A stretch of 64,000 bases of DNA from IMG/VR virus record IMGVR_UViG_3300021387_001709, positions 64,001 through 128,000 of that record. One strand, given 5' to 3'. Shown one piece after another: positions 7,420-49,000 of the stretch. Source of the DNA: a virus. Lineage: Duplodnaviria; Caudoviricetes. Made by a program: the position numbers and the translations under genes. The stretch's first letter is position 1, and each line of letters opens with the position of its first letter. The notes under the pieces are model-generated. The model saw only the letters and a program-made list of their open reading frames with translations. It ran no database searches and was not told the DNA's origin.

Positions 7420-10400
7420 TCAGTGTCCTGCCTTGCGCATATCTTTGCTCATTTCTTTTGTAGTATAGTTATATATATTCTTTTTAAATGAGGCATTGCT
7501 CATCAATCCCTTTGCTATTTCTTCAAGCTGCGGAATAATGGATTGATCGGCATTACCGTCTATTTTTATTAAGTTATCATAATGTATATTAATACTCTGA
7601 TTGGTATTATGACTAACATTGTACTCTGGTACTTGGAAATTCGGTGTTTGGACCGGAACCATACCGGATTTTGCCATTTCCATAAGGTTAGCCGTAAGAT
7701 CTGCAGGAATTACTCCGTCACCGGCTTTTAATGGCATAAGCATTACGCCGCGACGTGTAACTATTGCCTCTGAACCATTTTCATTAATCCTATGCAAACC
7801 CGGTTTTGCGTTCTTTGTTCCTTTTGCGTACCCATCTTCAAGTATCTCTTCTACCGGGGCCTCTCTAAGCACAAACCCTTTTCGGAATATATCTCTGATA
7901 TCCCCAACATCTTCCCGGATTTTCTGAGCTTGATTCTGGATATTGTTTTGGTATGCATATTCTTCCTTGGAAAGATTATCGTCATAATGAGGGACATAAC
8001 TGGTTATACCGCCGGGTCTTCTGAGTTCATTGTACTCGAGATTCTTCCCTTTTGTCCACCCAGTTTGAATATTGATAGCATCCGCTACCTAATCAATTTC
8101 TTCCATTCCTAATTGCCCCGCATAAGCGTCTGGATGGAATGATTTAATATAAGCATTGAATGAGTTATCAACATTTTCTAACTGAGAAGAAAGATTGTTT
8201 ACGGAGTCTTTTACAAGTTCTATAGCATCGTCGAGGTTAACAGCCAGATCTTTTACATATTTTTCGAAGTTCTCCTAAAGCTATGTTTGAAGATCTGTTA
8301 ATCCTTCAACTCGAAGATTGACTATGTGTTCTTTTACAGTATCGTCAAGTTCTTCTTGCATTTCCGCACGTTGTGCTTCGAGACGTGCCTTTTGAGCGCG
8401 ACTCTCGGCATCAGTTAGGCCATTTAGTGCGCGGATTTGCTGCTCGATAAGCTATACATCTTTATTTTGTTTTCGTAGTTTCTTATCATAATCATAAAGC
8501 TCTTTGCGTTTATTCAACTCGTTCTTTCTGGCATCAATTAGCTTGTTAATATAAGTAATTTCTGTTTGATACCTGTCGGTTATGTTCTTAATAATGGTTT
8601 GTCTTTGCGATGCTAAAGTAGCCAATACATCTCTGCCTTGCGCCTCGAGTTCATTTTTACGCTTCGTATATTCTTCAAGGCTGTATGACTCATCAGACCC
8701 AAACAAATCATTATTCTATCTTATTGCGGCGGCTATATAAGTATATTCGTCTTGCGCTTCCTTATAAGCGCGTAAATCCATGGCGTATTTATCAATTCCA
8801 AGCTGAGTAAACACACCGTCGGTTGTATACATCATATCTGGGCTGATTAATCCCTTGAATTGCTCTGTTGCTTTATGCAGCGTTGCGAACTGATTAATTA
8901 CATTATCAATTGCCTTGAAGTAGACGTCCTCACGAAGTGCGTCCTATACTTCTCCGATATCTATCTCTAAATCGACTATCTCTTTGCTCGTATTGTTAAT
9001 TTCTGTCTGCATTTTCTTCCATTCTTCGCTGCCTTCAATGATTCTACCGGATGATACTGCATTGGCTAATTCGTCGGTAAGTGCTCGCCTCTGATTATAT
9101 AATGCAGAGCGCATGTCTTTTATTTGCTGAATCTCTTCGCCATAGCTATCTACAACTCGCTGAGCATCCGATCCTTTATTTATCTTCATAACCGGCTTAT
9201 TTTTTGTAGAAGTATTAAAAGTAACACCTCTAAGCATACCTTTTTCGCGGTTAACTGTGTTTCCGGCGTATCCACGTTCCTACCACAATTTACGAGTTTG
9301 AGTTGTTATACTTCTAAGCCCATCAATATAATCTATTGTAGCTTCATACCAGTTTTTAATATTCTCAAATCTTTCTTGCGCAATCTTTTGTTCTCGTTCG
9401 GCTGTTTCAAGTGCAGCTTGATTGAGTTCTTCTTTCATTTTGGACTCTTGATCTTTTGCCTGAGTGAGGGCAGTAGTAACATTTTCTAATGATACCACAC
9501 TATTATTCCACAATGCGGCTACATGAGCCAACGCATTAGAAACTTTTGTCGGGTCTATCTTTTGCCCTTTTTTCATAGCTTCATCAATGATAGCTTTTTC
9601 GGCTTTTGTTGCGGCTTGGTACGCTTTGTCGCTCTTGATACTCTTTGCCCTATCAGTCTATGCTTTCTGAAGTTTTGCACGTTGTGCTTCGAACTCATCG
9701 GTGACACTTTCTTGTTCTCGTAATGCTTTTAATCGTTCCTATAGCTATTTCTTCATTTGTTTTAATTCTTCTTCTAGGTATTTATTCTGGGTTCTAAATG
9801 TCGGCACTTTTGAGTCCGCCGAAGCATCCGCGTCCATAAGAACTTTTGCCTAATCAGAAATTCTCTGTTGTTCTGTTGCCACTGCCTTTTTATCAATCTC
9901 ATTTTGCTTTTTAGCACTTTCCCAATTAGACCTTGCATTATTCTATGCCGCTTTTGCCGCAGCTTGTTTGGCAATTTTATTATTATAATCATTTACCAGA
10001 TCTTTAAAATGATTACCCATCCAACTTTGATGTTCAATACGTTTACCCTGCGATATTAATTTAAGAACCCAGTTTTTATCCTTTGCCTTTACATTGTTCT
10101 TGTTCATGAATTGCTTAATATTATTAATGGATGTCTTGGTCATCGATTGACGTTTTTCATAGTCGGATTTTTTTGTTTCATATGTATTCCATCTGGTGCT
10201 TCTCGCAGTCGCGGATTTATTTTCGACTTTCTTTTTCTCCGCGACACCCGTTGCAAGATCTATCATTCGTTGTGCCGACGCAATGCCGGATCTGCCGCTG
10301 GATATCGCACTTGTTATTCCGGTGATAGTATTAATTCTATTTTCAACTTTCTCTAATGCCTGCTCAAGCTTTTCGGTCGGTAGCTGAATAATCTGGTCTT

Positions 10401-13400
10401 GTAGTTCTCGCATTGTATTTGCTAATTCTTGAATTGCAGTATTTGCTTCACGAGCTTTATTAATATAATCAAGGTAAGCCCGTGCGCCTTCAACAAGTGC
10501 GGCATCGTCCGGATTAGTTGTATCAATAATATCAAGGTTATACTCTCCGGCCAATAATTTTTCTCTATTGAATTTAGTCCAAATATTTGCAGTCTTTTTA
10601 TTTCCGTCTTTATCGGCATAAGAGTAATTAGTTGCCAATTGCTCTGCGAAATTTGCATATGTTGTAGCGGCGTGAGAGTTAGCTTTAATTTCATCCTAAA
10701 TAGCTGTAATTTCTTTGCGGAGAAGTTTTCCTTTAGTTACTTTATTTACGTAGTCGGTAATCTTATCGGCAAAATATTTTGTTTTGTCCGCGAAATACTG
10801 AAGGCGAATTTCCACATAATCAAAGATTTCCTATGAAAACTGCGGTTTATCTTCCTCTTGCGGTTTTTCATCTCCGCCGGTGCCTGCGTTTCCGCCACCG
10901 GTGCTTGCTGTTTGAGTACCGCTACCAACGTTTACGTTGTTGTTATTTCCGCTAACACTAACTCCGGATTGTCCACCACCGCCGCCGGTCCATGTAAATG
11001 TTCCACCGCCTCCGGGAAAGGCATTCGTTAATTTAGATAATCTGTCAATTGTCCCATAAGCATAACCTCTGGCAGAACCAATAACTTTACCAATTCCGCC
11101 GTTCATACCGCTGAGTATTGCCCTAAGCTATGAATTGTTGAAAATTATATCTCCGGATTTTAACTGCATAAAATGAGCGCCGCCAGGAATAATACTGAAT
11201 TTACCGTCTCGTACTAATCCCTCCGGACCAATTTCTCCTACTAAAGCAGTTTGATCTTCTTTTAGCGCAATATCTCCCTTTGCATGAGAATCATATTCTT
11301 CATCTTTCAGAATACCTTTATCCGTTATCGTCCCTTTTGCAAATGTCTTTGATATATTATTTAAAGTTCCGGTTGCTCTGGCAACTGATTGAACAGTACC
11401 GGTAGCACCAGATTTAGTTTTCCCGCCGCCTCCTGACTAGACCGTATTAACATGGATTGTTGCTGTCATGGCATTGATTCTCGACACAGCGGCATGAGCA
11501 GCAAGCAATGCATTGCCGGTTGCAGCACCGACATGTATCATTGGATTTAATCCTTCAATAGTATTTGCAGCAGAACGAGCAGCAAGAATAGCATTTCCGG
11601 TCGCAGCTTCTACATGCATTGTCGGAGTCATTCCGTCAATTGTACTCTTTGCTCTGTTAGCGGAAGCAATCGCTTTGTCTGTTTTTGCTTCGACTTTCAT
11701 TTCCGGTTTCATGGAATCTATTTCTTCTTTTACCGAATCAACCTAATCCAACGCCTCTTCTGGATTAACTTTAATATCAATTGGATCGGTGTCTCTGATA
11801 CCATCAATTGCAGTTTTTAACGATTCAATCTATGAGGTAGCGCTATCAATATTTAATTTGACTGGAATATTAGATGCTTCAGCTTTTAATGCATTAAGAG
11901 CAGTGGTAGCAGCATTGGTATCAAGTGACGCTGACGTGGAGGATGTCTACTTATTGCCACCACTAAGAAAATTAGAAACAGCACTAATTGCGCCTCCCAC
12001 GGCGTTTTTAGCTTTCTGAATTACTTCAACTATAGTAACTTTTTTTGTCGCTGGTTTCTCCGCCTCCGCTTGAACTTCATCCTAACCAGTAGCTTCAAGT
12101 TTAACTTCCTTTGTGTACTCCTCGCCATTAATCGCAGCACTAACAGCTTCATTAATCCCCTAGAGAGAACCCTCATCTAATCTTACGGGCATAGATATTT
12201 CTTTTCCGTCGAGAGAATCTATCATTGCTTCGGCGGTTTCAACATCAGATGTATCTATATTTAGAGTGGCATCAAGAGTTCCATCATTCATCGATTGCTA
12301 TAATTCTTCTAATGAACCTCCGTCTTCAAGATACTGTTCTATTGCAACTCGCACGTTATACTCCTACTGGGTCTTTGCTTCAAGCTATTCAAGCTATGCG
12401 AGTGCTTCTTGACCGCCTTCTTCTTCAACATTTATTTGAGCCTTCATCTAGTCTATTTCAGCTAATTTATTCGAAAGTTCGTCCACGCTCATTGTCGCAG
12501 CATCAAATTGAGTTGCTCCCTCAAATTGAGTACCTTTAAATAATGCCTCCACCTTATCGGTAGCAACAGTAGCACTATCGCTAAATTGATTCATACTGTC
12601 GATTGCTCCGGCAAAATCAATTACGCCTAAAGCGGCGAGGATGTTCACCAACTATTCGCCCTAAGCAGAAGATAAGTTTGCTTCTTTAGCAATACCCTCA
12701 AGGGCATCCTCAGCAGCTTCGAGTCCCTTAACATTATAGTCTCCATCTCCCAGCTTAATCTATTTGAGTTCATCATACGATATCCCTTTAAGAGCGTCCG
12801 CATATTCCATAACCGCATCTTTTGCGTTCTGAATTTTAGTTTTGCCTGCTTCAAATGCGGAGAACTCAGCGGTGTGTGGGTCTATTCCAAATGCTTCAGC
12901 GCCAAGAGGAGACTCCCACGAACCAATTTTACCCTCGAGGTCTTTCATAGCGGCATTATAAGATGCTTCATCAACCTCGAAGTCAGCATTTACTTTAATT
13001 CCATAATCATCGGCTAAATCTTGTGCCTCACGGAGAAAACGATTTGCGCTTGCTTCGTCACCGCGCTCCATTGCATCATCATAATATGATTTAAGGTCTG
13101 CAATACTACTCTTGAGATTCTTAAGGTTGCTTACGTATTCCTATGCTTGTCCTCGCTAGAAATTTTGAGTAGCTGTCTGTACGGCATTCAGCTATCCTTG
13201 ATACTGATCAATGACATCCTACTGAATCGCCAAATCATCGGCGCTTGCGCCTTCACGCTTCATTTCGGCATATTTAAGCTATGCATTGGTAAGCTCATTA
13301 GTCCATTTCTATGTCTGAAGTTGAGCGTCTTCCATGGAGGAAACGAACGCACCCATTCCGCCATATTCTTCGGCTTTGCCAAACATGTCACGGAACCATT

Positions 13401-16400
13401 CTTCGCCAGCTCCAAATTGATGGGCGGCCTTGGCTAAATCAGTAAAGTTCATTACCAGACCTTGGGTACCGTCTTCATAAGTTTCAAGAGTAGCCATACC
13501 GGCACTCTGTAAATCCATCATGAATTTATGTACGCCCTGGATATCATCGGTCATATATTTAGAGAATTTATCATAGTTCTGTTTGAATCGCGTCGGGTCG
13601 GATAAGCCCCATTCGTCAAAATAAGCGGCACGAGTTTTGTAATCGTCCGTGCCAATCAGACCTTTATCCCACATTTCTTTTGCTTCTTTGAGATAATTCA
13701 TTGCCTTGTCATAATTTGCACCTTGATTCACGGTTTGATCCGCAAGTGCAATTTGACCATGCTGTGAGAACTGCTCCATAAGCTACTGGTATGCGGCAAA
13801 TACTTGCGATTGTTGTTGCTGAAGATCTGCAAGGTCTTGTTTCAGCTTGTTAATACCAGCAGTATTTATATCACCGCTTGCATTTTCCATGCGATTAAGT
13901 GCTTCGGTAGTTTGATTGATTTTTGTTGTTAAATCATTGTTAGATAATTCATACTCTTGTTGCGCGAGACGCTGTAACTCAACAACATTAGCTTTAACAC
14001 CGTCAGTTGTATTATAGAATACACTGGATAAATCAGCAGAAGAGCCTAAATCACTGAATGCGGTAGATATTGCTTTGATTGTATCCGGAGTTATACCGGT
14101 GGGAGTAGCCATTTCTGAGAATGCGGACTGGATAGCAGAAGAGAGGTCTTGCGCTTGAGTAAGTAATAAATTACGAGCCTGATCATCATAACCATATGCG
14201 TCAGCAAGTGCTTGCACCATGGATGATTCGTTTTGGCGGATTTGATTAAGTGTATCTTGGTATTCTTGTTTGTTATTTCTAAGCGCAGGAAGTTGATTCC
14301 TCAATTCTCTGTTTTGGTCTGATAAATTCTTTGCTTGCTGTCTGGATAAAGTCGCAAGATTTTTGTATTCTTTTTCGTTAGCTTTGATACCTTTCGCCTA
14401 GTTTACGGTAATTTCATCATTAATTGCAGAAGCTTGGTCTTGGATGTTTGTCATCTAATTTTGTAATACATTAAGATGAGATTCTGCTTCATTGTACATT
14501 GGGGAAGTGTATTTCTGGAGACCGGATATAACTTCTTCAGCATCTAAGGCTTCCTAGTACATGCTTGCTGACTACTCAAGATCATATATATCTGATTTTG
14601 GATTTCCATATCTTTGAGCAAGATCAAGGGCGTCAGACATAATAGATTCCTAAATTCCAATCTGTTCTTTTGCATTATTCGCCTATAACTTTGCAAGATT
14701 ATGAGAAATATATTCTCCTCTGTTTTCAATATCGGTGCGTTCTTTTTGTAACTAATCTCCGTTAGCTTTGGAAGTGGCATAATCCGTTTTTAGATTATTT
14801 AAATCTGTTTGCGCATTTTCTTTTCTGGTTTCTATCATTTCTGTTTCCGTGCTTGAAATATTTGCCAGAGCCTCTCTATAATCAGCTAATGCTTTATCAT
14901 ATGCTACCTAATCACGTCTATCAGCCGCTTTATTCATCCTTCCAAGTGCGGTATTAGCCTTATCGTGATATGCCTAAATATCTGATTCATATAATGGCAT
15001 GACACTATTATTAAGTTCTTCCTCAGTTAAACGTTCGCCTTTTGCTTGACGGTTCTCATTTCTTGCATTTATTAAGTTTCGCTTTTGTTCATTTTTCTCT
15101 AAAACGGCTTCGGCTTCACGGTCTTTAATAATCAAATCCCATTCAATCTTTTTATGATTATACTCAGCTAAAATTTGCTATAATGTTGATTCTGCCGTAA
15201 TCGTACCATCAAGCGTCAATTCCCAAAGAACATTATAATTAAGTTCTTCGCCGTTCTATGAGAGAGCAGTTAATACATCATTATATTTCTATTCATTAAG
15301 ATGAGAACCTGTCTAATCTGTATATGAAAACGTTTCTTTTAAACTGTTTTTTGCTGTTTCGGCAGAAACAGAAAGGTTGTCATAAGATTCAATTAAATTA
15401 TCAATATATGCCTGTGATGCTCTTGCAGCTTCCGGTGTGAGAGGCCCTTTATCAGCCTATACTTTTTTAAACTCTTTGATATATTCCGATAACTATTTAA
15501 CCGCAGCGTTATTAATGCCTTCAAATGAAAAATCATCCATACTTGGCATAGCATCTTGCAAATTTTTCATTTCTTCTGCTGTAAGTTTACCGTTTTCACG
15601 GTAAGACTCTAGTGCATTATTCAGTGATGATAAATTAGATTCATACTGTGATGCACTTTTTGAAAAATCTTCGTCATTGAGAATATCCGCAAGAGTACCA
15701 GTTCCAGCTTCTTCTTTAATCTAGGATAACTGGTTCAAATATTCTCTGAGGGATTCAATTGTATTGCCAACAAAATTAAAGTTTTGATTGTTCATCGCTG
15801 TCTGGGCAATTCTTTGTTCTTTTTGCGTTAAACTCTGTATATCATCCCAAGATATCTTGCTTTTGCCTTGTTTATAGACATTTTTACCATTAGCATCTTG
15901 AGTTACCTCGCCGCCAAGTCTTTCGAATATAGCAGCCCGAGTGTCAGTAGCATTCCAATGAGTATTACCATTTTCATCTTCGTCTTCGTACTTATATCCA
16001 AGAGATACAAGAATCCATTGTTTTATTTTATAATCTTCTGTACCTTCTCCACCCGGAAAAATTTCATTAAGAGTTTCATTTATCTATTGTCGCATTTCCT
16101 CATTTGTAGCGTTGTCAAAATCAAAATCAAATATTTTTTGCATATCTATAGTGTCAACGTCACCGTTTTGCAAAGATCTTTCTATTGGGGCTATAATTCT
16201 ATTTTTTAATTTTTCATCAAAATTATCTCCGCCACCTAACTAGTCAAATAATGCGTCATAATTAAAATCTATACTATTTAACATAGTTTCGATTCCAGAT
16301 TGTATTTGCTCTGGCATACGTAAATAAGCTGGATCCGTCTCTAACATATCCATAAAATTAGGTAAAAATTTTGAAATCCAATTACTCTATTTACTCTTAT

Positions 16401-19400
16401 TTAACGCATCTACTGTACTCTAAGTAGCGTTTATTCTATCAGCTAAATCATTCTAAAAAGCAGTATAAACATCTTGTACCTTAGAAATATTATCTTTATT
16501 TACCTCAATCACGCCGGTGACATCATATATTTTTGAATATTCCAGACCGGCTTCTTCCATCATAGAAATAAAGGCATTTTCCGCATCTTCTTGCCCTTTA
16601 AAATTAAAAATATTTCCTTCTCTCTGTCTCCCGGTTTCTATCGGCTACTAAGCCTAAGTTAAAAGCCGCTTATATGTATCTATAGCATTCTATTGTTCTT
16701 GTATTTCCTCGTCTAAAGTTTTATTGGTTTCTTCTATATTCCCAATAATATCCGGCATTCTTTCTTTTAATGCGTTTGCGTTCATTCTGTTTTGTGCTTC
16801 AATTAAAGCGTTTAAACTATCCGTAGCTTGCTAAGCATTCTTACCTAAATCAACTAACGATTGCCCACTATCCGTTACACCGGTTTTTAAGGACGGAAAT
16901 GTATCGGCAAGCTATTGATTAATGGCTAAAAATTCCTCATAGTCATCAGTGGAAAGAGAAAGATTTTTAATTTGATTCCCATTCATATAAACTCCACTAC
17001 GGAGCTCATTATATCTATCTTTTGCTTTCGTACCAACTTTATTAATATTGTCTGTTTGTTCCCTTATCTCTCTAGACTCAGTAAGAGCCTCTTCTCCCTT
17101 TTTAATTTTATTTTCTCTTTCGTGAATTTTATTATCAATTATATTAAATAAGCCAGAAACAACCCCAGTAACAAGCATAGACAACCCAGCTGTGGCGGCA
17201 AAAGATGCAATGCTTGTAACGGCATTCCCTAAAAACCCTCCAACACCACCGAGAAGTGTAGTACTTTTTCCTATTTTTGATATCATTTCCGTAACACTGG
17301 CAGTTTCTACGTTTAATCCTCTCATATTAGTAAGTAAATCGCGGACGTCTTCTGTAGCATTTTTTAATGATCCACCTAGCGGAGAAACCGTATCCCAACC
17401 AATCGCGTCCTTAAATAAAACGTCCTAAGAACCCGTTGGGATTAGCGTTTGTAAATACTTTATAGCATCTTTTCCTCTTTGAGAATTGGCCGTAAAAATA
17501 CTTCTAAAAGCCGTGGCAATACTCCCAGACGCATCGTAACCATTAGTGAATTTTGTCATCTAATCTTTTATAATTCTTCCAAATTCCCAGTCTCCCATAC
17601 CGTTTTTACGGAACAATCCGTTTCCGGTAAACTGAAGGAATCCACCGATTCCGGCTCCGAGAATTCCGCTAAGTCCGCCGAATGCGTCTACTAATTGCGT
17701 AACCACTTCAACTGCGGAAGTGCCGAGATCAATGATATCTTTAAGCCATTCGCTGTCAATTGTTACTGTTGCTAATTGTTGTAATCTATTTTGAAGCTAT
17801 GCCATTTTCCCTTCTACAGAATCTAACTATGCATTAAGTTCGTTTTGTGCCGACCCTTGTGAGTTCATTAGGGAGTCTTGATAGACGCTCTTTAAGAGTT
17901 CAGGGTTACTGAGCAGCGAGGATGCTGCAGCCGCCCTTGTTTTCGGAATATTGCACAAATTACGCAACAATTTGTGATTATATTTTGGTTAATTTATACA
18001 GTCAAAATATAACTCTTACACTTTCGCGTAAGTCTAGACCATTTTTTAACCCACGACTTAACGTTTGGGTCACACCTTTTCGAACACCATTTGCGATTGT
18101 GTTCTACTCCTAAAGATTCAGATATTCAGGATTTCCACCTTTATTTTATAACTAATATGTATAATAGCATTAGTATTTCTGAATCCCAACACGGGGATGG
18201 TCGTTGAACCTTTACCCTCGACTTAACTGTTTGTATGGTGTACAAATAACGTTAGGGTACTTGGATGCGAATTAGCCACGTATCTTTAAATTATTATCCT
18301 CTCATAATCTGATTTCTCAATTATTGTAGTATAAAGCTTTAGGCATTCAACGCATTTAAATGTGTTCTATAAATATGTTTCCATATTTTCAGGCAAAATT
18401 TACCTCAATTATGTTAAACATGGTTCACAACACCATGTGATTCGTAATAAACGAATCTCTTACACTTTCATGCAAGTTCTGACCATTTCTTCACCCTCAG
18501 CATCATCTGTTAGGGGCATACCTTTTTGGTGTACCATAAGTTTGTACCCTACGATTATTCATAATCTGGTCGATGAACGTTCACCAATGTATAATACAAA
18601 ATATACATACAGGTGCTTCGATGCAAGAACAGCCAATCTTTATGTTATAAAACCATCATAATATATTTTCATTATTATTGTGGTATAAAGCTCTAAGGCA
18701 TTACCTGCAATTAGATATGTTCTTTATATATATTTCTATATATTGTGGCAAGCCGTTTGCCACCGTTTCAAGTAATAGCGACTATCTATTGGTGCCCAGT
18801 TTCTTATCTTCCTCGCCGATTTCCTTAAATACTTCGGCGATACCGAGCATACGCTCATAAGTTGTTTTGTAAGTACCGTCATCATTAAGTATATCAAAAC
18901 CTTTATATCCGTTTGATTGCACTTTTGTCGCGTCAAGAATCGTCTGTCGCAGCTTCGATTGTGTAGTAATTAAACCATCGATTTCTTCGCCGGCTTCTTG
19001 CATATCCTCAACAGATGTTCCACTCAATCTCAGTGAGATTGTCTTAAGGGATTGACCAACCGTGAGAGGATCTTGAAGCACGGCGTTAGCAGCAGTAGTA
19101 AGAGCTACAGCTTCGTCAAATGAATCGCCTGTAACTTGTAATGTACCAGCAGATTTCTGAAGTGACTCAGCTAACTCTGACGTACTGATTGCGTAGTTAT
19201 TCAAGCTGTTACTTTCGGATAATTATTATCCTACTGACCATTTAATAAATGGCGCATAGTCGTTTCCGGCTATGTCTATGCCTTCATTTATTCGCATAGT
19301 TCAGACTGTATATTACATCCCTCACCAAATAGGAGAGTAGGATGGATAGCTTCAATACATATGTTACCATATATATCCCGCAGTCGTTACGGTACAACGA

Positions 19401-22400
19401 AATAGACATCGTCTTACCTCGGTATCACCCTCTGTGGGCTTCTACCGATATAGCTATCTATAGTTGTATTTACTACAACCTAACATATTACTATGTTATT
19501 AGGCAAAATCTACCTATATAATTTAACTTGTCGATGATTTCCGATTTGTCAAGATCTTTATACGCTTGGCTCATTGCAACAAGAGATTCTGTTGCCGCAT
19601 TAATATCCTAAAATTCAGATATGTTAAGCAAAATACTTGACTGCTCCGCACTTTTTTGTGCTTGTTCAAATGATTCACCAAGCCTTAACCAGTCAGCGGT
19701 ACTTTCTTGGATTTGCTTAGATGTTGTTCCGACACGATCGGCAGCCTCAAAACTTCCATGTTGCGCGAAATCTTTAAGAACACTAAGTGGTTCATCAGAC
19801 ACTTTTCGCATTTCCGTAAGAGCAGTATCAAGTTCTCTAACGATATTAACGCCTTGTTTAGCAATATTGATCACTTCATACAAATCTGCGTATGTAAGTA
19901 AATATCTCGCCATTCCCTTGAACGAACCTTTAAGGGTCTCTCCAAATGATTTACCGACATCGCCGGCTTCTGTCGCCTGGGTTTTTATCCGCTCGAATGC
20001 AGCAGCGATTTCGTTAAGATTACCGTCGGACACACCATTTATTGCGTCTTGAAGGTTTTGAATTTGTGGGAAGTATTCGGTAGCAGCAGAATTTTTGTAC
20101 ATCCATTCTTCCATACGACGTTTAAGTGTGGCGGCGTCTTTTTCATCGGCGAGAGAGTAGTACCCACCACCTGCGCGTTGAACAGCTTCATTCAATCTAC
20201 CTCTAAAAGATAATACCTAATCCTAAATTTGATTACGTCTATCAGGCGAAGCTTTTTCATATTCTTCAGATGTTTTAACCAAATTTTCAAATTCATCATT
20301 TAAATCTTGTAAAACCTTAACTCCATCTTCGTTCCAATTACCTTTGCCTAATTTTTGGAGTACTTCGCCCATTTCTTCGAGAGTATCAGTAAATGCGGAC
20401 GTAGATGCGTTGCTCATAGCACTATCGAATTGCTACATTAGCTATTTTAATGAGTCTGATGCCTCACCCTATGCCAAAGCAAAAAGACCGGTTTTTTTAA
20501 TCGCATCATCATAAAAGTTACTATATCTATTTAAAAAAGCCTACTCCGAGTAATCTAACATCTGACCATTCGACTACTTCTATTTTATTTGCGCATAGCG
20601 TTCCGCGTATTTAATAAGTGTTTGATATCCACGCTCAACATTTTCAAATTCATAATTCTCATTATCATTAAATGCAGACATTCCTGATTTTAAAACGTCC
20701 ACATCTTCCATTTTTTGTCTATAATCATCAAGTATTGAATCGGGAACTGTCCAAGTCCCACCTTGATTTAGTTTATTAAGCGTAGCATATGCGTCCTCCG
20801 CCCCCTAGCGAAGTTTTTCCATAGTATCTACGGCTCGTTGAAGTTGATTGGCGTTAATCTCTCCAAGGTTATATAAATCCTACGCATTGGACGCTCGCTC
20901 AGCAGCGTCATGGTATTTCTGTATCTTATCCATTTGTTTGCTTGTAAATTTAGCTTCTTGCTAAACGATAGCCTTGGTTAAATCCTCCTAGGATTTCTAA
21001 GACCCTTCCTTTGACACATTATATTTATCTAAAGCCGAAGACGCCTACTCCTCCGTGATTTTCGCCTCGTTTCTCATTTCAATTATCTTTTGTTTGGCCG
21101 TATCCGCGGCTTTTCCCGCATCCTCCAATACTTTAACAATAGCCCTTTCTTGATCACCGGAAACAGCTTGTCCTTTTGCCTAGTCTGTTAACATTTTATT
21201 AAACTAATTTCGGGCTTCAATCGCGTCTTCAATAATTTTTACTTGCTAATTATACTCCTTCATATTCTCATCGGCTTCTTTTTTATCTTGCGCGGCTTTT
21301 ATCGCATCTCTGGATTTTGCACTACCGCCACTTTCAGCTTTTTCTAAATCATTAATGGCTTTGTTATATTGATCTTCTGTAATATCGTCTTTAATTTGAC
21401 CAAGTTTTTCCCTAACGTTGACCGCTTTTTCAAGTGCCTATTCTAATCGCTACACAGCTTCAGCCCATTCATTTGTTTTTTTTATTTCAGGATCGGTCTC
21501 TGATTTTGCAATGAGTTTATTCATTTCTGTTTGTGCTTTAAACAACTCATCAATTATTTTCGTTTGTTCTTTATAAGTTGCGTCAACATCATCAGTTTTC
21601 GCCTTCTATTTAGCTCCTTCTAACTTCGCTTCAGAATCGGTAATCTTTTTTATTCCCGTGGCCATAACTTTATTAGCGTCAATATATTGCTACTCAGTTA
21701 TAGCTCCTTGTTTTCGAAGTTCATTCAAGGTTTTGTTTGATTGTATAAGATTGTCTGTAGCTTTTTTTTCTCGTTCTATCGCTAACGTCATCTAATCGTT
21801 GGAAACAAATTTGCCAGCTTCTTGATCAGCTTTAAGCTTATTAAGTTCCGATACGGCATCTCCGTATTCACGAATGGCTTGCATTGCTTCTTTATATTGG
21901 TTTTTAACATTTTGGTCAAATTCGTCTTGTTGCGCTTTGCCCTATGCCTCATAACGCTTACGCCCCATATTATATTCGGTGTTACGCGCTTTTTGGTATT
22001 GCTATTCTCCCATAGCAATTGCCATAGCATCTGATAATTGTTCTTTATATTCTGCATCTACGTCCTTAAAACGTTGCTGAATAGATCTTAACTTATTATT
22101 AAATTCTTCTAGGTCTTTAGATTTAAGATCGGAACCGATATTATCTTCAAGATTACGCAGTTCACTTTCTAATCCTAAAGTATCTGCATTAGACTTCTAC
22201 ATCTTACGCATAGTACTATGTATATCAGTAACTAATTTATCTTTGGCAGCTGTTATGCTATATGGGTTAAACTGAGTGTTTGCTTTCTAATCTTTTATAG
22301 ATTGTTGTGCTTTTCTTTTATATTCATTAATTGCGACGCCTAATTCTTCCTTAATAGTCTTAGGCATTTCTTTCCCAGCATATGCGTCAAAATAATCCGC

Positions 22401-25400
22401 AAATATTTTATCATACATTTCTTTAAGAGCTGTTTTATCCGAATCCGCCAAATCAACTCCCGCATTATCGACATATTTCGCCTTTATATTATTAAGGTTT
22501 CCTCTTTGTCTGGCTATAAGAGCGTCAGTATTTTCAATAGACTTATTTCGCTTTTCATTTTGTCTAAATTCTCTTTCTTCATCTTGTTGTTTAAATTTTG
22601 CATCAAGAATTTTTTTGCTCTCCATTACTCTTGATTCAAAATCATTGACCTAATCTGAACCAGGCAAATACCCCGCACTTTTATAGTACCCATACAATTC
22701 ATCATTCATTCTACTATAGACATCATAATATAACCCTAACTGAGTCTCTAATCCATCGGTATTTTTTCCTTGCTCTCTGGCGACTTTTATATCATGGTCT
22801 AGAGTAAAAACTTTATTCGCAATTTTTATTACTTGGTCTTCGAGTGTTTTATAATTTGTAGAAGTAGTAGTGGATTCAAATTCATTACCGTCTTCGTCGC
22901 GCATTATTCTGGTAGTTTCTTTTTCGCCATAGCCCAATCTTCTAGTATACGATGTCCTTTCGCCATCAACTTTTGTTTCTCCAGTATATACACCTTTTCG
23001 ATCATCAGAAGTATCACCTTGCTGAGTTACCTCAGATATAGCATCTGAATTTCTCTTAGCAGCTTTACCTTCATTATCAAGACCTTTTGTCGCTTTCTTT
23101 GTGGCATCGGCGGTTTCTTCGCCAGACTCGGCAACTTTTCGGTTAGCTTCTTCAAATTTCTTCTTTTTTATTTCAGAAACCTCGGCGGCTTCACCTTCGT
23201 TCGTTATCTCCCTGGTGGCGTCCCGAAGCGGTTTAGTTCCATCGGTTGTGTTTTTCGTAATTTTTGCCGAAGACTCAGATAATAATTCATTTAAATGTTG
23301 TTGATCATCAGCTGATTTTTTAATATAACTTAGAAAATCATCTTTGCTAGATGGGGGATTGGATAAATATTCGTAAAGCTATGACAATGCACCCTGTGTA
23401 TTAGTAGAAGTATCAAAGATATGTCCAAAAGACTCATTTATCTCTTCCAAAAATGATATTGCATCTGAACCTTTTTTAGTTGATAAAGTACCAATACCAA
23501 TAGTTCCAAGAATGTTGTTCCAGTTATCACCAAATTCTTCTCGGTCACCTTTAGAGATTCGTATTTTATTAGATGATACAAAACTTCTAATTTGTTTCCA
23601 TAATTTCATATCACCCTATGATTCAATTACTCCGCTATCCCTAGAAAGAATATCAAACAGATTATCATAAGTTGGTATTTCACCGTTCGCGGTTTCAACC
23701 AAAAGATTTCGAACTTCATTTTTTAATTGTCCAAATATTTTAGTGGACTTTACACCAAATTCATCACGAATGGCAGACGCTACCCTAGTCGTTTCTTTTT
23801 CTAAGTTTTGTTCATCAATTATAATATCGTCTATAGGCGACTCACTTGGCATACTTTTATCCCACATATTAGATATTTCATTAAAAGTATATCCGAGTTC
23901 TTTTGCTTTAGAATTAAATTGATCTATCGCATCTGTAAACGGAAGATCTTTTTCCGTAACCTCAAATTCCAAATCGTCTACTATAGACTACAAACTTTTT
24001 GGGGCCAACTTGGTCATATTTTCAAATTTCTAATGCGGCAAAATATCCTCGCCATTTTGTGAAATTTTCTTCCAGGCCCCAGATATTTCATCAAAAGCAT
24101 ATCCAACCGACTCAGCAAATTTTCTAACAGCCTCTTCACCTTTAATAGACTCCTTGGTTATTTGATCTAAGAAAGCACCATATCCGTCCGGAAGTTCATC
24201 CTCCGCCATTCCCATAGCATCTAAAATAGGCTTTGTTCCCTCTGTGAATTTCAATATTTCACCATTTACACGACCATTTCTTTCACGTTCTGTTACAAGT
24301 TCTTCCTATCTTTGAGCTATATGAGATTTAAACTCGTCCATTGCCGCATCATATTCTTTTTGCCCAGTAGCAACGTCGGCTATTAACTGATTTACAAAAT
24401 CTTGATTTGCATCGGAATATCCCTCTATGGAACGGATATCTTTTCCGAAAGTAAGACGTTTGTCGTCTGGGATGACACCTTGTGAAACTGGAGTTTCATT
24501 TTGCCGCATCTTTTTTTGATATTCTTGAAGAGAAAATTCAAAATGTTTATAATAATCATCTTTATTAAATGCATCGTCAAGATATGGTTTATGACCAATT
24601 ATGTCCTAAACAAAATTTTCATCTATATTTCCATCTTGCATATCTGCAATTATTTTAGAAATATCTCCATCTTTTAATTCTTTAAGTAAATCAACATATT
24701 TTTGAAAATTATCAATACTCCATTTATCGCTTAATGTTTTCTATAGTACTTCTAGTTCATTTTCTGGCAAATTTAATGAACTAAACATTTCGCGAATTTC
24801 ATTAGACGACTTTTCAAATGCATCGTTAATTGAATTTCCAGCGATATCAGCGTTCTATGGAATCTCAACACCAAAAATATCACAAATCTACTTTAATAAA
24901 CTTTCAAAGTTTTGACCTACCGTTACATTTAACAAATCACTCTAAATCTATTTTATTTTTTGCGCAGCGTCAATTGTCTTTGTAATCTATTCGCCAGCCT
25001 ATCCAGGTTTTAAAGATAATTTATTTACTGTGATAGTTTCTTGATTAACTCCTTCTCCAAGATTTATTAATTTATTTACCAAATCAACGGTATTTTGCGC
25101 ACCAGCATTAATCTAATCGAACTGTGTATTAAAAATTTTAGATAACGAATCGGACGGAGAAGAATTACTTGTAAATCTTAATGTAGCTATCTTTGTTAAT
25201 ATTCCATATAACTATTCATATCTCACAGTATTCTAATTAATATCGGTATCCGATGAAATCGGACTTCCATCGGAATCTCCAGCTTTATGGTTTTCATTAT
25301 CTATAGCATCGGCCGCCTCTTCAATCTTTTCCGCCGTTTCTTTCCCAGATTCAGCAACCTTTTCTTTATTAACTTTTGCGAATTCTTCTTTATATGGGAT

Positions 25401-27875
25401 TGCCTCTTTGGCGGACTCGCCCTCAGTTTTTATTGCGTTTGCGCCTTCCTAAAGAGAAGAGAAGTCAATAGAAGAGATAGTAGATTTGAACGTCGCAATA
25501 GATTTATTTAACTCATCAAAATTACTAGTAATGCTTTCCCAATTAATACTTGATAATATAGAATCATTACCACCTAAACTAAAAGCATTCTATATAGCCT
25601 CCCCCATTTTTTCGGCGTTCTCAGCAACTTTTTGCATTGTTTCATTAAGTTGCTCAAGAAATGATGGCGCTTTTGCGTCTTTCGGAAGAAGCCCCTTTGA
25701 CAATACACTATGCAAATTGCCTATTGCATCTGTAAATAATTGGATTTGTTGTGTGTATTCTTTTACGGAATCGGGTTGCCCAATTTCATCATCGGCTTTT
25801 ATTTTGGTCTGACTCAACGTTTCAAGTAGCTGGTCTTTTAACTTCTGTTTATCTTCAGGAGACTTTGTAATTTCGGCCTTTTCACGAATTCTTTTACTTA
25901 TATATTTGAAATCCGTTGCTGGAAAATTCAATTCCAACATTTGATCCCAAAATAAGTTTTCCCCTTTTCCGACACTTTCAGCGGTTCTCTATATAGAAGA
26001 GATGAATGCCATTATTTGTTTAATTTGGGTCTTTGAGTCAGGTAAAAGTTTAATTCTATCTGGATTAAACTATTCAACGAACTCCTAAACATTAGGGAAC
26101 GCTTCCAAAAACCCGGAACTTCTTGGTGACTATGCCATAATATTTGCTAAAAGCTATATGTCACTAACATCTCCACCAAGCATACCTTCATCTTTTAATG
26201 ATAATTTATATTTGTTTACGACGTCTAATATATTTTTATATGCCGCCTAATATCTTTCTGCCTAATTTAACCATTCTGTTTCTATATTTGCCTCAATTGC
26301 CGCGTCCGCTACATCGTCTTTAACATGCACATTAAACTATTGTTCTTTTCTTGATGTGGTTCTCGAAAAATCCCACATTTCTCTATTAAGTTGTAATAAA
26401 GATTTCTGATTATTTCTAGCTTTTTGGTTAGTGCCTTCTCCAAATCTACCTATGGCATCAGATACCTGATTAACCACGGACAACAAAGACTAAAACTAAC
26501 TAATTAACGGTTCTATTCCAGCGTCGGTATCTATTCGACCAAATGCAGAACTAATATTTGTTATTTCCGTATTTAAATTTTCTAGTATATTAATCAACTA
26601 TTGAATGTTTTCCGTATTCCAAGACGTGGAATCGCCACTCGTAGCATGAATTTCTGAAGACATCTTTTCTTTTTTTTTATTAATATTTTCTATATGTTCC
26701 TCGGTATCATTTAAAGCCTATTCTGTTTCATCTATATTTGGCACTTTTATTTTTGAAAAATCAAAATCATTAATAGCCTATTTAATATCATTAAGTGCAT
26801 TTTTAAGTTCATTTAATGCGTTTGTTGCGGAAGTTATCTGTCGCTCATCAATTTTAAATGTTAGTCCATTACCATCTTCTCCGAGAGCCTCCAAGGACTA
26901 CGAAACTTTATCTATAATATTTTGAAATTTCTAAAACGTTCCGTCATCTTGAAACGCTTTCTTAATTTTGCCAATAGAATCGGCTACGCCGGATTCGGTC
27001 TCACCCTCAACTCTATCAGCCATCTGTTTGGATGCCTCTAACTCCCTCTCAAGTTCTGCTCGCTGCTATTTTAATGATTTAACCTAGGCCTTATTTATTT
27101 CATCTGGATTTCTTCCAAGATTCTATAAATTTTTATTTCTAACGTCAACCAGTCTAGCCTATATGTCTTTATAGTTTTCAAAAATACCGGAATCTTTAAT
27201 TATTCTGTTATCTGGGTTTAAAGCAGTTCTTAATTTTTTAGTAATATCAAATATTATTTGAGAAAAATCTTTATCGTCAAACCCTATTAACTAACTCAAG
27301 TCTCCGCCTTGACCAAGATATTTAAATAAATTATCAATATAACCACGTAAATCACTTGCATTTTCCTTAGAAAATAACCCGTCCAATCGAACATTTGATG
27401 TAGCAAGCTATTTTATCTTTTTATACCCTTGACTATTAGAATCGAGTAAATCTCTTTGTATTTTTCTAAAATTATTTTTTGCCTAGTTAGCATTTTTAAT
27501 TTGTTGATTTATATTATCAATATCAAAACCGATTACTTCCTCTGGTCTAACAGTCGTTTTCCCAGCTATTTGATTAACGGTTTTCCCAACGTTTTCTAAA
27601 TTGCTCTATACTTCTCGAAGAGAATTACTAAGCTCATCCATCCCCGCAACGTTTAAACCAAATAAATCTTCACCGTTCTGTCCTTTATACATCTTTGTCA
27701 CATTTTTAATTGCGGATTCAATATCTTTAATTGAGTCTAATATTTTTGATATATCTATATCTGCATTAAATTTAATTGGTTTTTTAGCTCTTCTTTCCAA
27801 TTCATCTATTTTTTTAGTGCCACTATCATCAACTTCAACTTTCAACGGCACAATCACGGTTTCGGTTTCTTTCAT
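7420..27875 (-). CDS. Giant tail tape measure protein, join(19512..27875, 18759..19201, 18402..18405, 7420..17943), 6444 aa in code 15
   Basis: All same-frame track fragments end in TAG, and the frame changes only across three group I introns. Splicing restores the TMP core motifs DKLNYIG|NNYAIST and LLETVA-G-KTRAAAASSLL. ELDTALTEMRKV core and C-terminal YAKGT motif present. Gaps were spot-checked, not exhaustively translated. Confidence 0.85.
17944..18401 (-). mobile_element. Group I intron TMP-I3 (458 nt, no ORF)
   Basis: 5' site CAGGU|AAAUUUUGCCUG (P1 with U.G). P7 elements GTTCAACGACCAT and AAAATGGTCTAG. Ends in G before AAA ACA AGG. Confidence 0.85.
18406..18758 (-). mobile_element. Group I intron TMP-I2 (353 nt, no ORF)
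   Basis: P1 GUGGC|AAACGGCUUGCCAC. P7 elements GTTCATCGACCAG and GAAATGGTCAGA. Terminal G precedes the micro-exon AGGT. Confidence 0.8.
19202..19511 (-). mobile_element. Group I intron TMP-I1 (310 nt, no ORF)
   Basis: AUAGGU|AGAUUUUGCCUA P1. P7 elements GTAACGACTG and ATATACAGTCTGA. Terminal G, and removal restores LNYIGNNYAIS. Confidence 0.88.
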
Positions 27876-39956: not shown

Positions 39957-41407
39957 TTACAACGCAATGATTTCAATTGGCAGCGAAGCGATTATATCTT
40001 CGCCATCAACTTTATAGGTTACAGTAAGTATTTTGCCGATATACGAATCGTCTCCCAAGAACTTAACCTTAACATGATTATCTGTTGCAGATAACGTCAG
40101 CAATTCTTGCGGAACGGAATTCCCATCTATAGAAAAATCCCAAGTACCTGGAAGTGCATCTACCGGCATACCGTCTTTGTCGGCAAATACCACAGTGAAT
40201 GTTTTAGCAGAGCCGCCTATACGAATCTGCTGTTTACCGGAGCATGTAATTGTAGCGGTGGTAGTGGGAGAAGGAGTAATATCATCTACAGGAATTGCCG
40301 GAGTCGGCTCTACTTCACTAGCTTTCCAATCCGCCCACCAAGCAATTACATTACCATCAACATCATAATCAGCCTTAAGTGTATGTTGATTAGCAAGATC
40401 TTGCGCACAAGTAAAAATCGCAATTCCTTTGGAATTACTGCGATTGACCTTACTAATCTAAAAAACTCTAGGCTCAGTTAGCACATTGGCATCTATCACT
40501 AAAAACGTATTGTAATATAGGTGTTCCGTGTCTCGATTTAATGGAAGACAAAACTGAGTCTAGTCTTCTACTTGCGTCACCTTGTAGTCAGTCCACAATC
40601 CGCTCATTATGTTATCATAAGGCTTTTTATCCTTATTTCTTACCGTCGCCGGTAAGATCAGCATATGTTTTCTCCATATCATTAATCGACTTAGGAGTCG
40701 GACACTCGTGGGAATATTATATTTATTCAATTCCTATGCGTTACAATACTTCGCGACCTTTCGCTATTCGCGAAGTTATCTCGGCGTTGTCTACAGGAGA
40801 GTTTCACCGATTTTGCCCGATTTTCACTTATAAGTTTCCTTATAAGGCAACAATTTTTATTGTACGAATTCTGGCTTCTGCTAACCCCCGGGAACTCATA
40901 ATATTTCCCATCTTTAATCCAGCGGAACACTTCATCGCAACGAAGCACCTCCCAAGTCGGAAACATATTTTCATCCCGGTCGGCTGTAGCAACCACTAAC
41001 CATCTGCGGTATATGTCATCTTCTCCCTTTAGCCAAACATAAAGACCAACTGGATATCTGGCTCTATACCGCTTACCAAACACTTCTTCGTAATAATCAA
41101 CCTCGCACTCATGACCAGGTCTAAACTGAATATGCATAGTTACCTCGTCTTTCTAAAATGTTTTTTTCGAGTGTGCAATAAATTTCACATCTATAGGTGT
41201 TGGATTTGTATCCTCTTCCGGATTAAATCCTTCAAGACGAAGTCTATTCTACGGCGCAGTATGGTAGTAATCGAAGAAATATCCTACCTAATACTAAACA
41301 TCCTATGTAAACGTAGCATCCATGATTACATCACTTTGCTACTTCCTCGCCCTCCCCGGTACACTAATATTATTGTGCATTGCCTGAAAATCTCTGTAGG
41401 TAATCAT
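39957..41407 (-). CDS. Neck/head-closure structural protein, join(40859..41407, 39957..40604), 398 aa
   Basis: Several TAGs in exon 1. Splicing gives the continuous SRSQNSYN|SGLWTDYKV. Confidence 0.7.
40605..40858 (-). mobile_element. Group I intron (254 nt, no ORF) in the neck gene
   Basis: ACAAU|AAAAAUUGUUG P1. P7 elements GTAACGCATAG and ACATATGCTGA. Terminal G, and it explains the frame change. Confidence 0.8.
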
Positions 41408-48928: not shown

Positions 48929-49000
48929 CAAGGGCGCCAGGTGCCGTCCCCGGTCCTCGCGGGTTAGAGCCGCGCGCACTAGCTGGTATGCTACGCCCCT
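48929..49000 (-). tRNA. Amber suppressor tRNA (anticodon CUA)
   Basis: Cloverleaf: AGGGGCG/CGCCCTT acceptor, GCAT/GTGC D stem, CGCGG-CTCTAAC-CCGCG anticodon arm, CCGGG/CCTGG T stem, G73. No encoded CCA. Confidence 0.88.

What the first reader, a model, noticed from the sequence alone, without database searches (positions are those of the whole stretch)
17944..18758. Two tandem group I introns separated by a 4-nt micro-exon, implying ordered splicing
Seen: two complete P7 element sets lie in this 815-nt gap. Only the join GTG GC + AGGT (18402..18405) + AAA ACA AGG restores frame and the TMP motif LLETVAGKTR. The downstream intron guide GCCUG pairs with CAGGU, whose C comes from the upstream exon, so its full P1 forms only after the first intron is excised. 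The first intron appears to use a C-G rather than U.G pair at its 5' site, with a P10 (GCUU:AGGU) matching the micro-exon. Inference: a sequential ribozyme relay in a phage structural gene, which I do not know to be described.
Basis: partly seen in the sequence, partly recalled or inferred. Interest (0 to 1): 0.85.

Follow-up and report, generated by a model that had tools for sequence, protein, structure and literature searches.

The report
Two phage introns four bases apart
A giant tail tape-measure gene of an uncultured, TAG-recoded gut/rumen phage really is interrupted by two self-splicing group I introns only four bases apart, an arrangement known from fungal mitochondria but apparently not from phages; the proposed obligatory splicing order is untested.

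Summary
The gene is on the minus strand and reads TAG as Gln. It is one 19,335-nt, 6,444-aa TP901-type tape-measure gene split by three ORF-less group I introns: I1 19511..19202, I2 18758..18406, I3 18401..17944. I2 and I3 flank the exon AGGU (18405..18402).

Natural alleles fix the boundaries:
- Intronless relatives read ...LLETI-AGK-TRAAAAS without interruption.
- A close relative (L001) has I2 alone.
- One sequencing-run contig lacks exactly the 458 nt of I3.
- Two independent datasets carry the same I2-AGGT-I3 junction.

Both introns belong to a large phage intron family with covarying P2, P3, P4, P6 and P7. Orthologues of I3 at the same Gly|Lys site pair a contiguous C-N-G-G-U with G-C-C-N-G. 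So I2 does split I3's native five-base target, and removing I2 restores the fifth pair (about -2.6 kcal/mol).

The C-G pair at I2's 5' splice site is supported and is common in this family (16 of 39 aligned members).

Ordered splicing remains inference, since I3's P1 can still form with four exon pairs. Exons of 1-3 nt and stepwise splicing of tandem introns are already described in mitochondria. I rate this a new variant of a known kind, of moderate interest.

The parts
19512..27875 (-). Exon 1 of the tape-measure gene (2,788 codons, ends ...LNYIG, phase 0)
   Evidence: The frame is open only with TAG=Q. PF10145 positions 3-85 match its last 77 residues.
19202..19511 (-). Intron I1 (310 nt), group I, no ORF. 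P1 is UAGGU|AGA with guide GCCUA; terminal G is 19202.
   Evidence: Rfam gives 19 bits, E 0.085. L001 reads KLNYVG-NNYAIS without interruption at this site. The join is in frame.
18759..19201 (-). Exon 2 (443 nt): NNYAIS...LLETV plus GC of the Ala codon
   Evidence: PF10145 positions 87-192 and TIGR01760 positions 127-226. Relatives share 41-99% identity.
18406..18758 (-). Intron I2 (353 nt), group I, no ORF. P1 is GUGGC|AA (18763-18757) with guide UUGCCAC (18751-18745), giving a C-G pair at the cleavage site. Other elements: P3, P4, P7, P8, P9 with a GAAA loop, P9.1, P9.2, terminal G18406.
   Evidence: Rfam 40.8 bits; family HMM E 1.6e-102. Present alone in L001, flanked by GTGGC| and |AGGAAAAACG.
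18402..18405 (-). Micro-exon AGGU: third base of the Ala codon plus the Gly codon GGU. It is both I2's 3' exon (P10 partner) and I3's 5' exon (P1 strand).
   Evidence: Intronless L002 and L003 read GCT GGT AAA here. The spliced product aligns without gaps.
17944..18401 (-). Intron I3 (458 nt), group I, no ORF. P1 is AGGU|AA (18405-18400) with guide UUGCCUG (18396-18390), giving a U.G pair at the cleavage site. Other elements: P3, P7, P8, P9 with a GAAA loop, P9.1, P9.2, terminal G17944.
   Evidence: Rfam 34.1 bits; family HMM E 2.5e-97. A contig of run X1 skips exactly 458 nt here. I3 is absent from L001. Orthologues sit at the same site in L077, L071, L086 and L119.
18390..18390 (-). Fifth guide nucleotide of I3 (G). 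It faces I2's terminal G18406 in the precursor and pairs with C18759 only after I2 is removed.
   Evidence: Read directly from the sequence. Duplex energy is -2.8 before and -5.4 kcal/mol after I2 removal.
7420..17943 (-). Exon 4 (3,507 codons plus stop), starting KTRAAAASSLLSNPELL
   Evidence: The frame is open with TAG=Q. TIGR01760 positions 245-345 match residues 6-103.

Best explanation
Two independent, ORF-less group I introns of one phage intron family are inserted four bases apart in the conserved TP901-type core of a 6,444-aa tape-measure gene in a TAG=Gln-recoded phage. Each has its own guide sequence, catalytic core (P3-P8 with P7) and terminal G.

Their targets overlap on the mRNA sequence G-U-G-G-C-A-G-G-U. 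I2 recognises GUGGC and cuts after the C. I3 recognises (C)AGGU and cuts after the U. Splicing of both rebuilds GTG GCA GGT AAA, which encodes V-A-G-K.

The four bases AGGU serve as I2's 3' exon and as I3's 5' exon. The two ribozymes therefore cannot hold them in their active sites at the same time and must act one after the other (inferred).

The more likely route is I2 first, then I3. I2 is transcribed first, and its removal restores the five-base P1 that orthologous introns use. I read this as a kinetic preference, not a requirement (inferred).

The C-G pair at I2's cleavage site is forced by the invariant Ala codon and is tolerated widely in this intron family.
For: Gene and genetic code:
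- The frames are open only with TAG=Q.
- PF10145 and TIGR01760 match across the exon pieces with adjoining profile coordinates.

Boundaries from natural alleles:
- L002-L013 read through the I2/I3 site without an intron and keep AG-K.
- L001 has I2 only and no I1.
- An X1 contig lacks exactly the 458 nt of I3 and reads TTG-AGGT-AAAACAAGG.
- The spliced CDS is 19,335 nt, in frame, and aligns without gaps.

The tandem junction is real:
- It is also present in metagenome contig L136.
- It is present in the 268-nt contigs of runs X2 and X3.

Ribozyme identity:
- Rfam full-length matches.
- About 54 distinct family members.
- Homologues exceed the gathering score: L001-Ix 70.1 bits, L077 70.2, L028 60.2 and 80.8.
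- Compensatory changes occur in P2, P4, P6, P7 and P3.

Native five-base P1: L077, L071, L086, L119, L078, L087 and others have a contiguous C-N-G-G-U facing G-C-C-N-G at the same Gly|Lys site.

Energetics: AGGU:GCCU is -2.8 and CAGGU:GCCUG is -5.4 kcal/mol.

C-G pair: 16 of 39 aligned members have it. L064 has no sliding ambiguity.
Against: - No spliced RNA was seen.
- I2 and I3 score below Rfam's gathering threshold.
- The fifth base pair could be chance: a G would pair with C or U about half the time.
- If the ambiguous run X1 is RNA rather than DNA, its contig would be an I3-spliced, I2-retained intermediate. That would argue against I2 going first.
- A C-G cleavage pair slows the chemical step in the Tetrahymena ribozyme (my own knowledge). 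I2 might therefore be the slower intron.
Confidence: 0.72

Rival explanations
1. Obligate relay. I3 cannot carry out its first step, or cannot hold its 5' exon, until I2 has been excised. Splicing would then be strictly I2 then I3.
For: - The fifth P1 pair forms only after I2 removal, and exon binding nearly doubles (-2.8 to -5.4 kcal/mol).
- Orthologues at this site use five contiguous pairs.
- In the precursor, I2's terminal G faces G18390 as a mismatch.
Against: - P1 folds as a hairpin of six pairs in the unspliced context, four of them exonic.
- Many group I introns work with short exon pairings of this size (my own knowledge).
- No RNA intermediates were observed.
Confidence: 0.12
2. No preferred order, or I3 first. 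Each intron splices independently whenever it folds, and the C-G cleavage pair makes I2 the slower one.
For: - I3 has the canonical U.G pair and I2 has C-G.
- I2 splices next to an uninterrupted 3' exon in L001, so it does not need I3 to be present or absent.
- The X1 contig has the form expected for an I3-spliced, I2-retained RNA if that library is RNA.
Against: - X1 is flagged as probably DNA, and its contigs retain I1, Ix and I2. An I3-less DNA allele is the simpler reading.
- Transcription runs 5' to 3', so I2 has time to fold before I3 is complete (inference).
Confidence: 0.3
3. Composite element or twintron. The 815 nt are removed as one unit, or one core is a dead remnant.
For: - I2 and I3 are paralogues with identical P7 strands and cross-compatible P3 strands, so chimeric folds are conceivable.
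- Tandem group I modules that splice as one unit are reported in Ophiostoma cox3 (PMC12308204).
Against: - One-unit excision drops AGGU. That removes the invariant Ala-Gly and destroys the conserved LLETVAGK motif.
- I2 exists alone in L001, and I3-type introns exist alone in L077, L071 and L086.
- Both introns keep all core helices.
Confidence: 0.03
4. Assembly chimera of an I2-only strain and an I3-only strain.
For: - Strains with different intron content co-occur (L001, X1).
Against: - The junction ...CATAATTG-AGGT-AAATTTTGCC... is present in an unrelated metagenome contig (L136).
- It is also present in contigs of two RNA-seq runs from another study.
- No I3-only allele of this type was found.
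Confidence: 0.02

Closest known systems
Mini-exons between self-splicing introns in mitochondrial genes (fungal cox1/cob; Podospora 3-nt exon; placozoan 1-nt exon; 1-nt exon between rnl group II introns in Ophiostomatales)
   Same: Two autonomous introns with their own splice sites are separated by an exon shorter than two codons, recognised by the missing conserved residues. Such exons are said to occur regularly (PMC10352661, PMC8971849, PMC12308204).
   Different: Here the host is a bacteriophage structural gene under a recoded genetic code. Both introns lack ORFs and are paralogues of one family. Their guide targets overlap by one nucleotide.
'Ratchet' or stepwise splicing of tandem intron modules (Ophiostoma ips cob-490; Zubaer et al. 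2021, as described in PMC12308204)
   Same: The upstream module is removed first, which produces an intermediate that the next module can use.
   Different: There it is supported by RNA-seq and uses pseudo-exon sequence. Here the order is only inferred, from one extra base pair and the direction of transcription.
Staphylococcus phage Twort orf142 with three group I introns and exon skipping (Landthaler & Shub 1999; title seen, paper not held)
   Same: A single phage gene carries three group I introns. In the present gene I1 and I3 share the 5' exon target AGGU and the guide GCCU, so exon skipping is conceivable.
   Different: As far as I recall, the Twort exons are tens of nucleotides long. 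No 4-nt exon or overlapping guide targets are described there. I could not check this.
Intron-dense, stop-codon-recoded gut phages (crAss-like Delta/Zeta groups, Yutin et al. 2021, PMC7886860)
   Same: Genomes of 145-192 kb with TAG or TGA recoding in late genes and up to 14 group I introns. A major capsid gene is split into five pieces.
   Different: That work identified introns through their endonuclease domains. It does not describe ORF-less tandem introns, micro-exons or tape-measure genes.
Group I introns with a C.G pair at the 5' splice site (Hur & Waring 1995, NAR 23:4466; title only)
   Same: A natural C-G pair replaces the conserved U.G pair, apparently because the protein needs that codon.
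   Different: That paper reports two mitochondrial introns. Here C-G appears in about 40% of aligned members of a phage intron family.

Membership tests
Group I catalytic intron (Rfam RF00028) | Score at or above the curated gathering threshold (50 bits) | tested here: not met
   I2 scores 40.8 bits and I3 34.1 bits, both over the full model 1-253. Their homologues pass: L001-Ix 70.1, L077 70.2, L028 60.2 and 80.8. Large peripheral insertions (a long P5 extension, and inserts between P7 and P3') probably account for the shortfall.
Group I catalytic intron (Rfam RF00028) | Conserved core helices P3, P4, P6, P7 and P8 supported by covariation | tested here: met
   P7 shows CG/TA exchange at two positions (42/8 and 18/29). 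P6 shows CG/TA (24/23). P2 and P4 show multiple pair types. P3 reads CATATTT/AGGTATG in 15 members and CACATTT/AGGTGTG in 10.
Group I catalytic intron (Rfam RF00028) | 5' splice site follows a U in a U.G wobble pair of P1 | tested here: not met
   I3 meets it (U18402.G18394). I2 does not: C18759 pairs with G18749. Across the family the counts are U.G 20, C-G 16, U-A 3.
Group I catalytic intron (Rfam RF00028) | Terminal guanosine immediately before the 3' splice site | tested here: met
   G18406 (I2), G17944 (I3) and G19202 (I1). The positions are fixed by intron-free alleles.
Group I catalytic intron (Rfam RF00028) | Self-splicing with guanosine cofactor | not testable with these tools
   The only RNA contigs (X2, X3) are unspliced across the I2-AGGU-I3 junction.
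Mobile intron (presence/absence polymorphism at a precise site) | Exact absence in homologous alleles, with the coding sequence intact | tested here: met
   L002-L013 have no intron at this site. L001 has I2 only. The X1 contig lacks exactly 458 nt. An I2 variant in L136 carries a 454-aa ORF with CapR and DUF2726 nuclease-like domains.
Twintron (intron nested within an intron) | One intron lies inside the other, with no coding exon between them | tested here: not met
   The four intervening bases encode conserved residues, and each intron occurs alone elsewhere.
TP901-type phage tail tape-measure protein (PF10145 / TIGR01760) | Profile match across the core region | tested here: inconclusive
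   The separate exon pieces score 21.9 and 29.2 bits against PF10145 (cut-off 33.2). Against TIGR01760 they score 22.3 and 30.8 bits (cut-off 28.8). Profile coordinates adjoin (3-85, 87-192; 127-226, 245-345). The joined protein could not be scanned. The best cultured hit is the Brevibacillus phage Sundance tape-measure protein, 38% identity.

The most novel reading that the evidence does not exclude
The pair may work as an obligate two-step ribozyme relay. I2, slowed by its C-G cleavage pair, would have to leave before I3 can hold its 5' exon. Production of the 6,444-aa tape-measure protein would then be gated by two serial RNA-catalysed steps. The shared AGGU/GCCU recognition of I1 and I3 could additionally allow exon skipping, giving an in-frame isoform 149 residues shorter.
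Probability: 0.1. Interest if true: 0.75.

Novelty: new variant of a known kind. Interest (0 to 1): 0.5.

Why it matters
- **Annotation.** This is a clean, naturally validated case of a 4-nt exon between two group I ribozymes in a virus. It shows that annotating intron-rich, recoded phage genomes needs micro-exon-aware gene models. Without them a 6,444-aa structural gene appears as fragments.
- **Experimental system.** The overlapping guide targets give a compact in vitro system of about 900 nt. It could test how two neighbouring ribozymes share one substrate segment, and whether the order of splicing matters.
- **Ribozyme chemistry.** The family-wide tolerance of C-G and U-A at the cleavage site bears on how essential the U.G wobble really is in natural group I introns.

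Tried and rejected
- **RNA evidence.** The look-up of sequencing runs and read laying gave no spliced junction reads. The X2/X3 contigs are unspliced across the junction. The X1 contig that skips I3 comes from a library labelled metatranscriptomic but flagged as probably DNA. Its strain differs from the window from 17906 onward, so it cannot serve as a splicing intermediate.
- **Looking for I3 without I2.** A viral-contig scan for I3's 5' end found nothing. A scan for GCAGGT joined to I3's start hit only an unrelated gene. The single metagenome hit again has I2 upstream.
- **Further I2-site introns.** Pattern hits L139 and L141 looked like more examples, but they match neither the family HMM nor Rfam, so I dropped them.
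- **The giant protein.** Pfam on the two large exons found no further domains.
- **Cultured relatives.** None found. There is one unannotated human-faecal phage record with 70% identity over half the region, plus the Brevibacillus phage tape-measure protein at 38%.
- **Papers.** Hur & Waring 1995 and Landthaler & Shub 1999 are not held, so only their titles are cited.
- **Whole-genome Rfam look-up.** It missed I1-I3 because of its first-pass filter.

Full report
**Gene context**

The finding lies on the minus strand. With the standard code the region is a mass of short ORFs. With TAG read as Gln, three long frames appear: 27875..19488, 19204..18701 and 17970..7420. The window is part of a 189,811-bp IMG/VR virus record that is 98% complete.

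The exon pieces match the TP901-type tape-measure profiles with adjoining coordinates. PF10145 covers positions 3-85 and then 87-192. TIGR01760 covers 127-226 and then 245-345. This is one tape-measure gene interrupted three times.

**Are the introns there?**

Rfam's group I model matches 18768-18459 (40.8 bits), 18411-18015 (34.1 bits) and 19521-19285 (19 bits). All three are on the minus strand and cover the full model, but all fall below the 50-bit gathering score. In each case the true 3' end lies 50-85 nt beyond the Rfam match, after two further hairpins (P9.1 and P9.2).

My boundaries are:
- I1: 19511..19202 (310 nt)
- I2: 18758..18406 (353 nt)
- Micro-exon: 18405..18402
- I3: 18401..17944 (458 nt)

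None of the three holds an ORF. Coordinates of P1, P2, P3, P4, P7, P8, P9, P9.1 and P9.2 for I2 and I3 are.

**Exon junctions are fixed by natural alleles**

Thirteen related loci were fetched with exon 2 as the query.
- Twelve of them read straight through the I2/I3 site. For example, L002 has ...CTT GAA ACA ATT GCT GGT AAA ACA AGA..., which is LLETIAGKTR. Ala-Gly-Lys is invariant in all twelve.
- L001, about 99% identical in exon 2, carries I2 alone. It reads GTGGC|aaacggcttgccac...cataattg|AGGAAAAACGCG, again V-A-G-K-T-R. It has no I3 and no I1, and reads KLNYVG-NNYAIS uninterrupted.
- L001 also has a further paralogous intron (Ix, 70.1 bits) at TLQVTG|DSF.
- A contig of run X1 joins 18399 to 17940, skipping exactly 458 nt with a 3-base AAA slide. 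It reads TTG-AGGT-AAAACAAGG, which is a natural I3-less allele.

The assembled CDS (E1 + E2 + AGGT + E4) is 19,335 nt and 6,444 codons with one terminal stop. It aligns without gaps to L002 and L003 across both junction regions. Removing the 815 nt as one unit does not restore the conserved motif.

The only residual ambiguity is a one-base slide of I2, because the intron and its 3' exon both begin with A. The terminal G18406 favours the boundaries given.

**The tandem junction is not an assembly artefact**

The string ...aacataattg-aggt-aaattttgcctg... recurs in two independent sources:
- An unrelated metagenome contig (L136).
- 268-nt contigs of two RNA-seq runs from another study (X2 and X3).

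In L136, I2 carries a 454-aa TAG-containing ORF with CapR and DUF2726 (nuclease-like) domains in the P9.1 loop. I2 therefore has endonuclease-bearing relatives.

**A large intron family with a hot spot in this gene**

An HMM built from I2, I3 and Ix recovered about 54 distinct members from IMG/VR loci. Covariation supports the core:
- P7 shows CG/TA exchanges at two positions.
- P6 shows CG/TA (24/23).
- P2 and P4 show several pair types.
- P3 reads CATATTT/AGGTATG in some members and CACATTT/AGGTGTG in others.

Several members pass Rfam's threshold. Among them is L077's intron at the same site as I3 (70.2 bits). It is 61% identical to I3.

At least a dozen members sit exactly at ...LLE-x-(I/V)-A-G|K, among them L077, L071, L086/L034, L119, L078, L087, L103, L104, L132, L076/L083 and L072. 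In these genes the five bases C-N-G-G-U are contiguous and face a G-C-C-N-G guide.

Closely spaced introns recur in this part of the gene:
- A 25-nt exon in L076 and L083.
- An exon of about 18 nt in L028, where both flanking introns exceed the Rfam threshold.

The window's 4 nt is the extreme of this series.

**What the micro-exon does mechanistically**

I2's guide UUGCCAC pairs with GUGGC|AA. I3's guide UUGCCUG pairs with (C)AGGU|AA. The two targets overlap at C18759.

Before I2 is removed, I3's P1 has four exon pairs (AGGU:GCCU, -2.8 kcal/mol). After removal it has five (CAGGU:GCCUG, -5.4 kcal/mol). The local hairpin gains about 2.2 kcal/mol.

In the precursor, I2's terminal G faces G18390 as a mismatch inside a possible extension of I3's P1.

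AGGU is also the only available partner for I2's P10 (GCUU). That pairing is very weak, at -0.2 kcal/mol. The same position serves as P10 guide in Ix (GAUU:AAUU) and I3 (AAAA:UUUU).

Since one four-base segment must enter both active sites, the two ribozymes must act in turn. That much follows from the anatomy. Which one goes first is inference:
- Transcription order and the restored fifth pair favour I2 first.
- I2's C-G cleavage pair may make it the slower intron.
- I3's P1 is already viable in the precursor.

No RNA data decide the matter.

**The C-G cleavage pair**

I2's C18759 is the second base of the invariant Ala codon, so it cannot be U. In the family alignment the cleavage pair is U.G in 20 members, C-G in 16 and U-A in 3. 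Reading the list by eye agrees.

L064 gives a case with no sliding ambiguity: GGC|GGAC... at the 5' end and ...TTTG|AAACGT at the 3' end, joining LLEKLAG to KRQGQ.

Natural C.G cleavage pairs have been reported before, for two mitochondrial introns (Hur & Waring 1995; title only). Their frequency here is unusual.

**Comparison with what is known**

- Mini-exons shorter than about four codons 'occur regularly' in mitochondrial genes (PMC10352661). They can be as small as 3 nt or 1 nt (PMC8971849).
- A 1-nt exon between two group II introns, tandem group I modules, and a stepwise 'ratchet' splicing pathway supported by RNA-seq are described in Ophiostomatales (PMC12308204).
- Recoded gut phages with up to 14 group I introns are known (PMC7886860).
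- Phage Twort has a gene with three group I introns and shows exon skipping (title only).
- I found no phage micro-exon in the held library. That is not proof of absence.

**Verdict**

The interpretation as two autonomous introns around a coding micro-exon is right. The 'relay' is a reasonable but untested kinetic hypothesis.

This is a new variant of a known kind: a mitochondrial-style micro-exon arrangement found in a bacteriophage, with overlapping guide targets. Interest is moderate.

Noticed in passing
window 7420-27875 (-): The spliced tape-measure gene encodes 6,444 aa and contains about 140 in-frame TAG codons. Apart from the TP901 core, no Pfam domain was found. The protein is far longer than typical tape-measure proteins.
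   Followed up: partly
window 44430-44787 (-), 61355-61606 (-), 40639-40869 (-); G000:C1:163215-163331 (+): The same phage genome has further group I intron matches (67.3, 45.4, 36.1 and 28.3 bits), so it is intron-dense.
   Followed up: no
loci L018-L135 (family members listed): In this phage intron family the cleavage-site pair is often not a wobble pair: U.G 20, C-G 16, U-A 3 of 39 aligned members. That is a marked departure from the near-universal U.G.
   Followed up: partly
L136:78-1647: A variant of I2 carries two ORFs (85 aa and 454 aa) in its P9.1 loop. The larger has CapR and DUF2726 nuclease-like domains and in-frame TAG codons, so it is a likely homing endonuclease.
   Followed up: partly
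L076:5150-5360 (-), L083:8060-8270 (-), L028:2260-2420 (-): Other phages have two family introns in the same tape-measure region, separated by mini-exons of 25 nt (AAGTGTAACTGAGTTAATCGCCGGT) and about 18 nt (AAATATCGCTTTTGAGGT).
   Followed up: partly
window 19512-19516 and 19501-19505 versus 18402-18405 and 18390-18394 (-): I1 and I3 share the 5' exon end AGGU and the guide core GCCU. Exon 1 could therefore be ligated at I3's 3' splice site. That exon skipping would be in frame and remove 149 residues.
   Followed up: no
window 48929-49000 (-): This 72-nt sequence folds as a cloverleaf with a CUCUAAC anticodon loop (anticodon CUA), consistent with an amber suppressor tRNA. Neither ARAGORN nor Rfam calls it.
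   Followed up: partly
window 17906-17940 (-) versus the X1 contig: The I3-less allele in run X1 matches the window for about 35 nt downstream of the I3 site and then switches to L001-like sequence. The mosaic is compatible with a gene-conversion tract around the intron site.
   Followed up: no
L043:6434 (+): An intron with the same guide as I2 (GCCAC pairing with GUGGC) sits after ...ATTGGTGGC| in another phage. I2 may have reached its site, 4 nt upstream of the usual one, through similarity of the target sequence.
   Followed up: no
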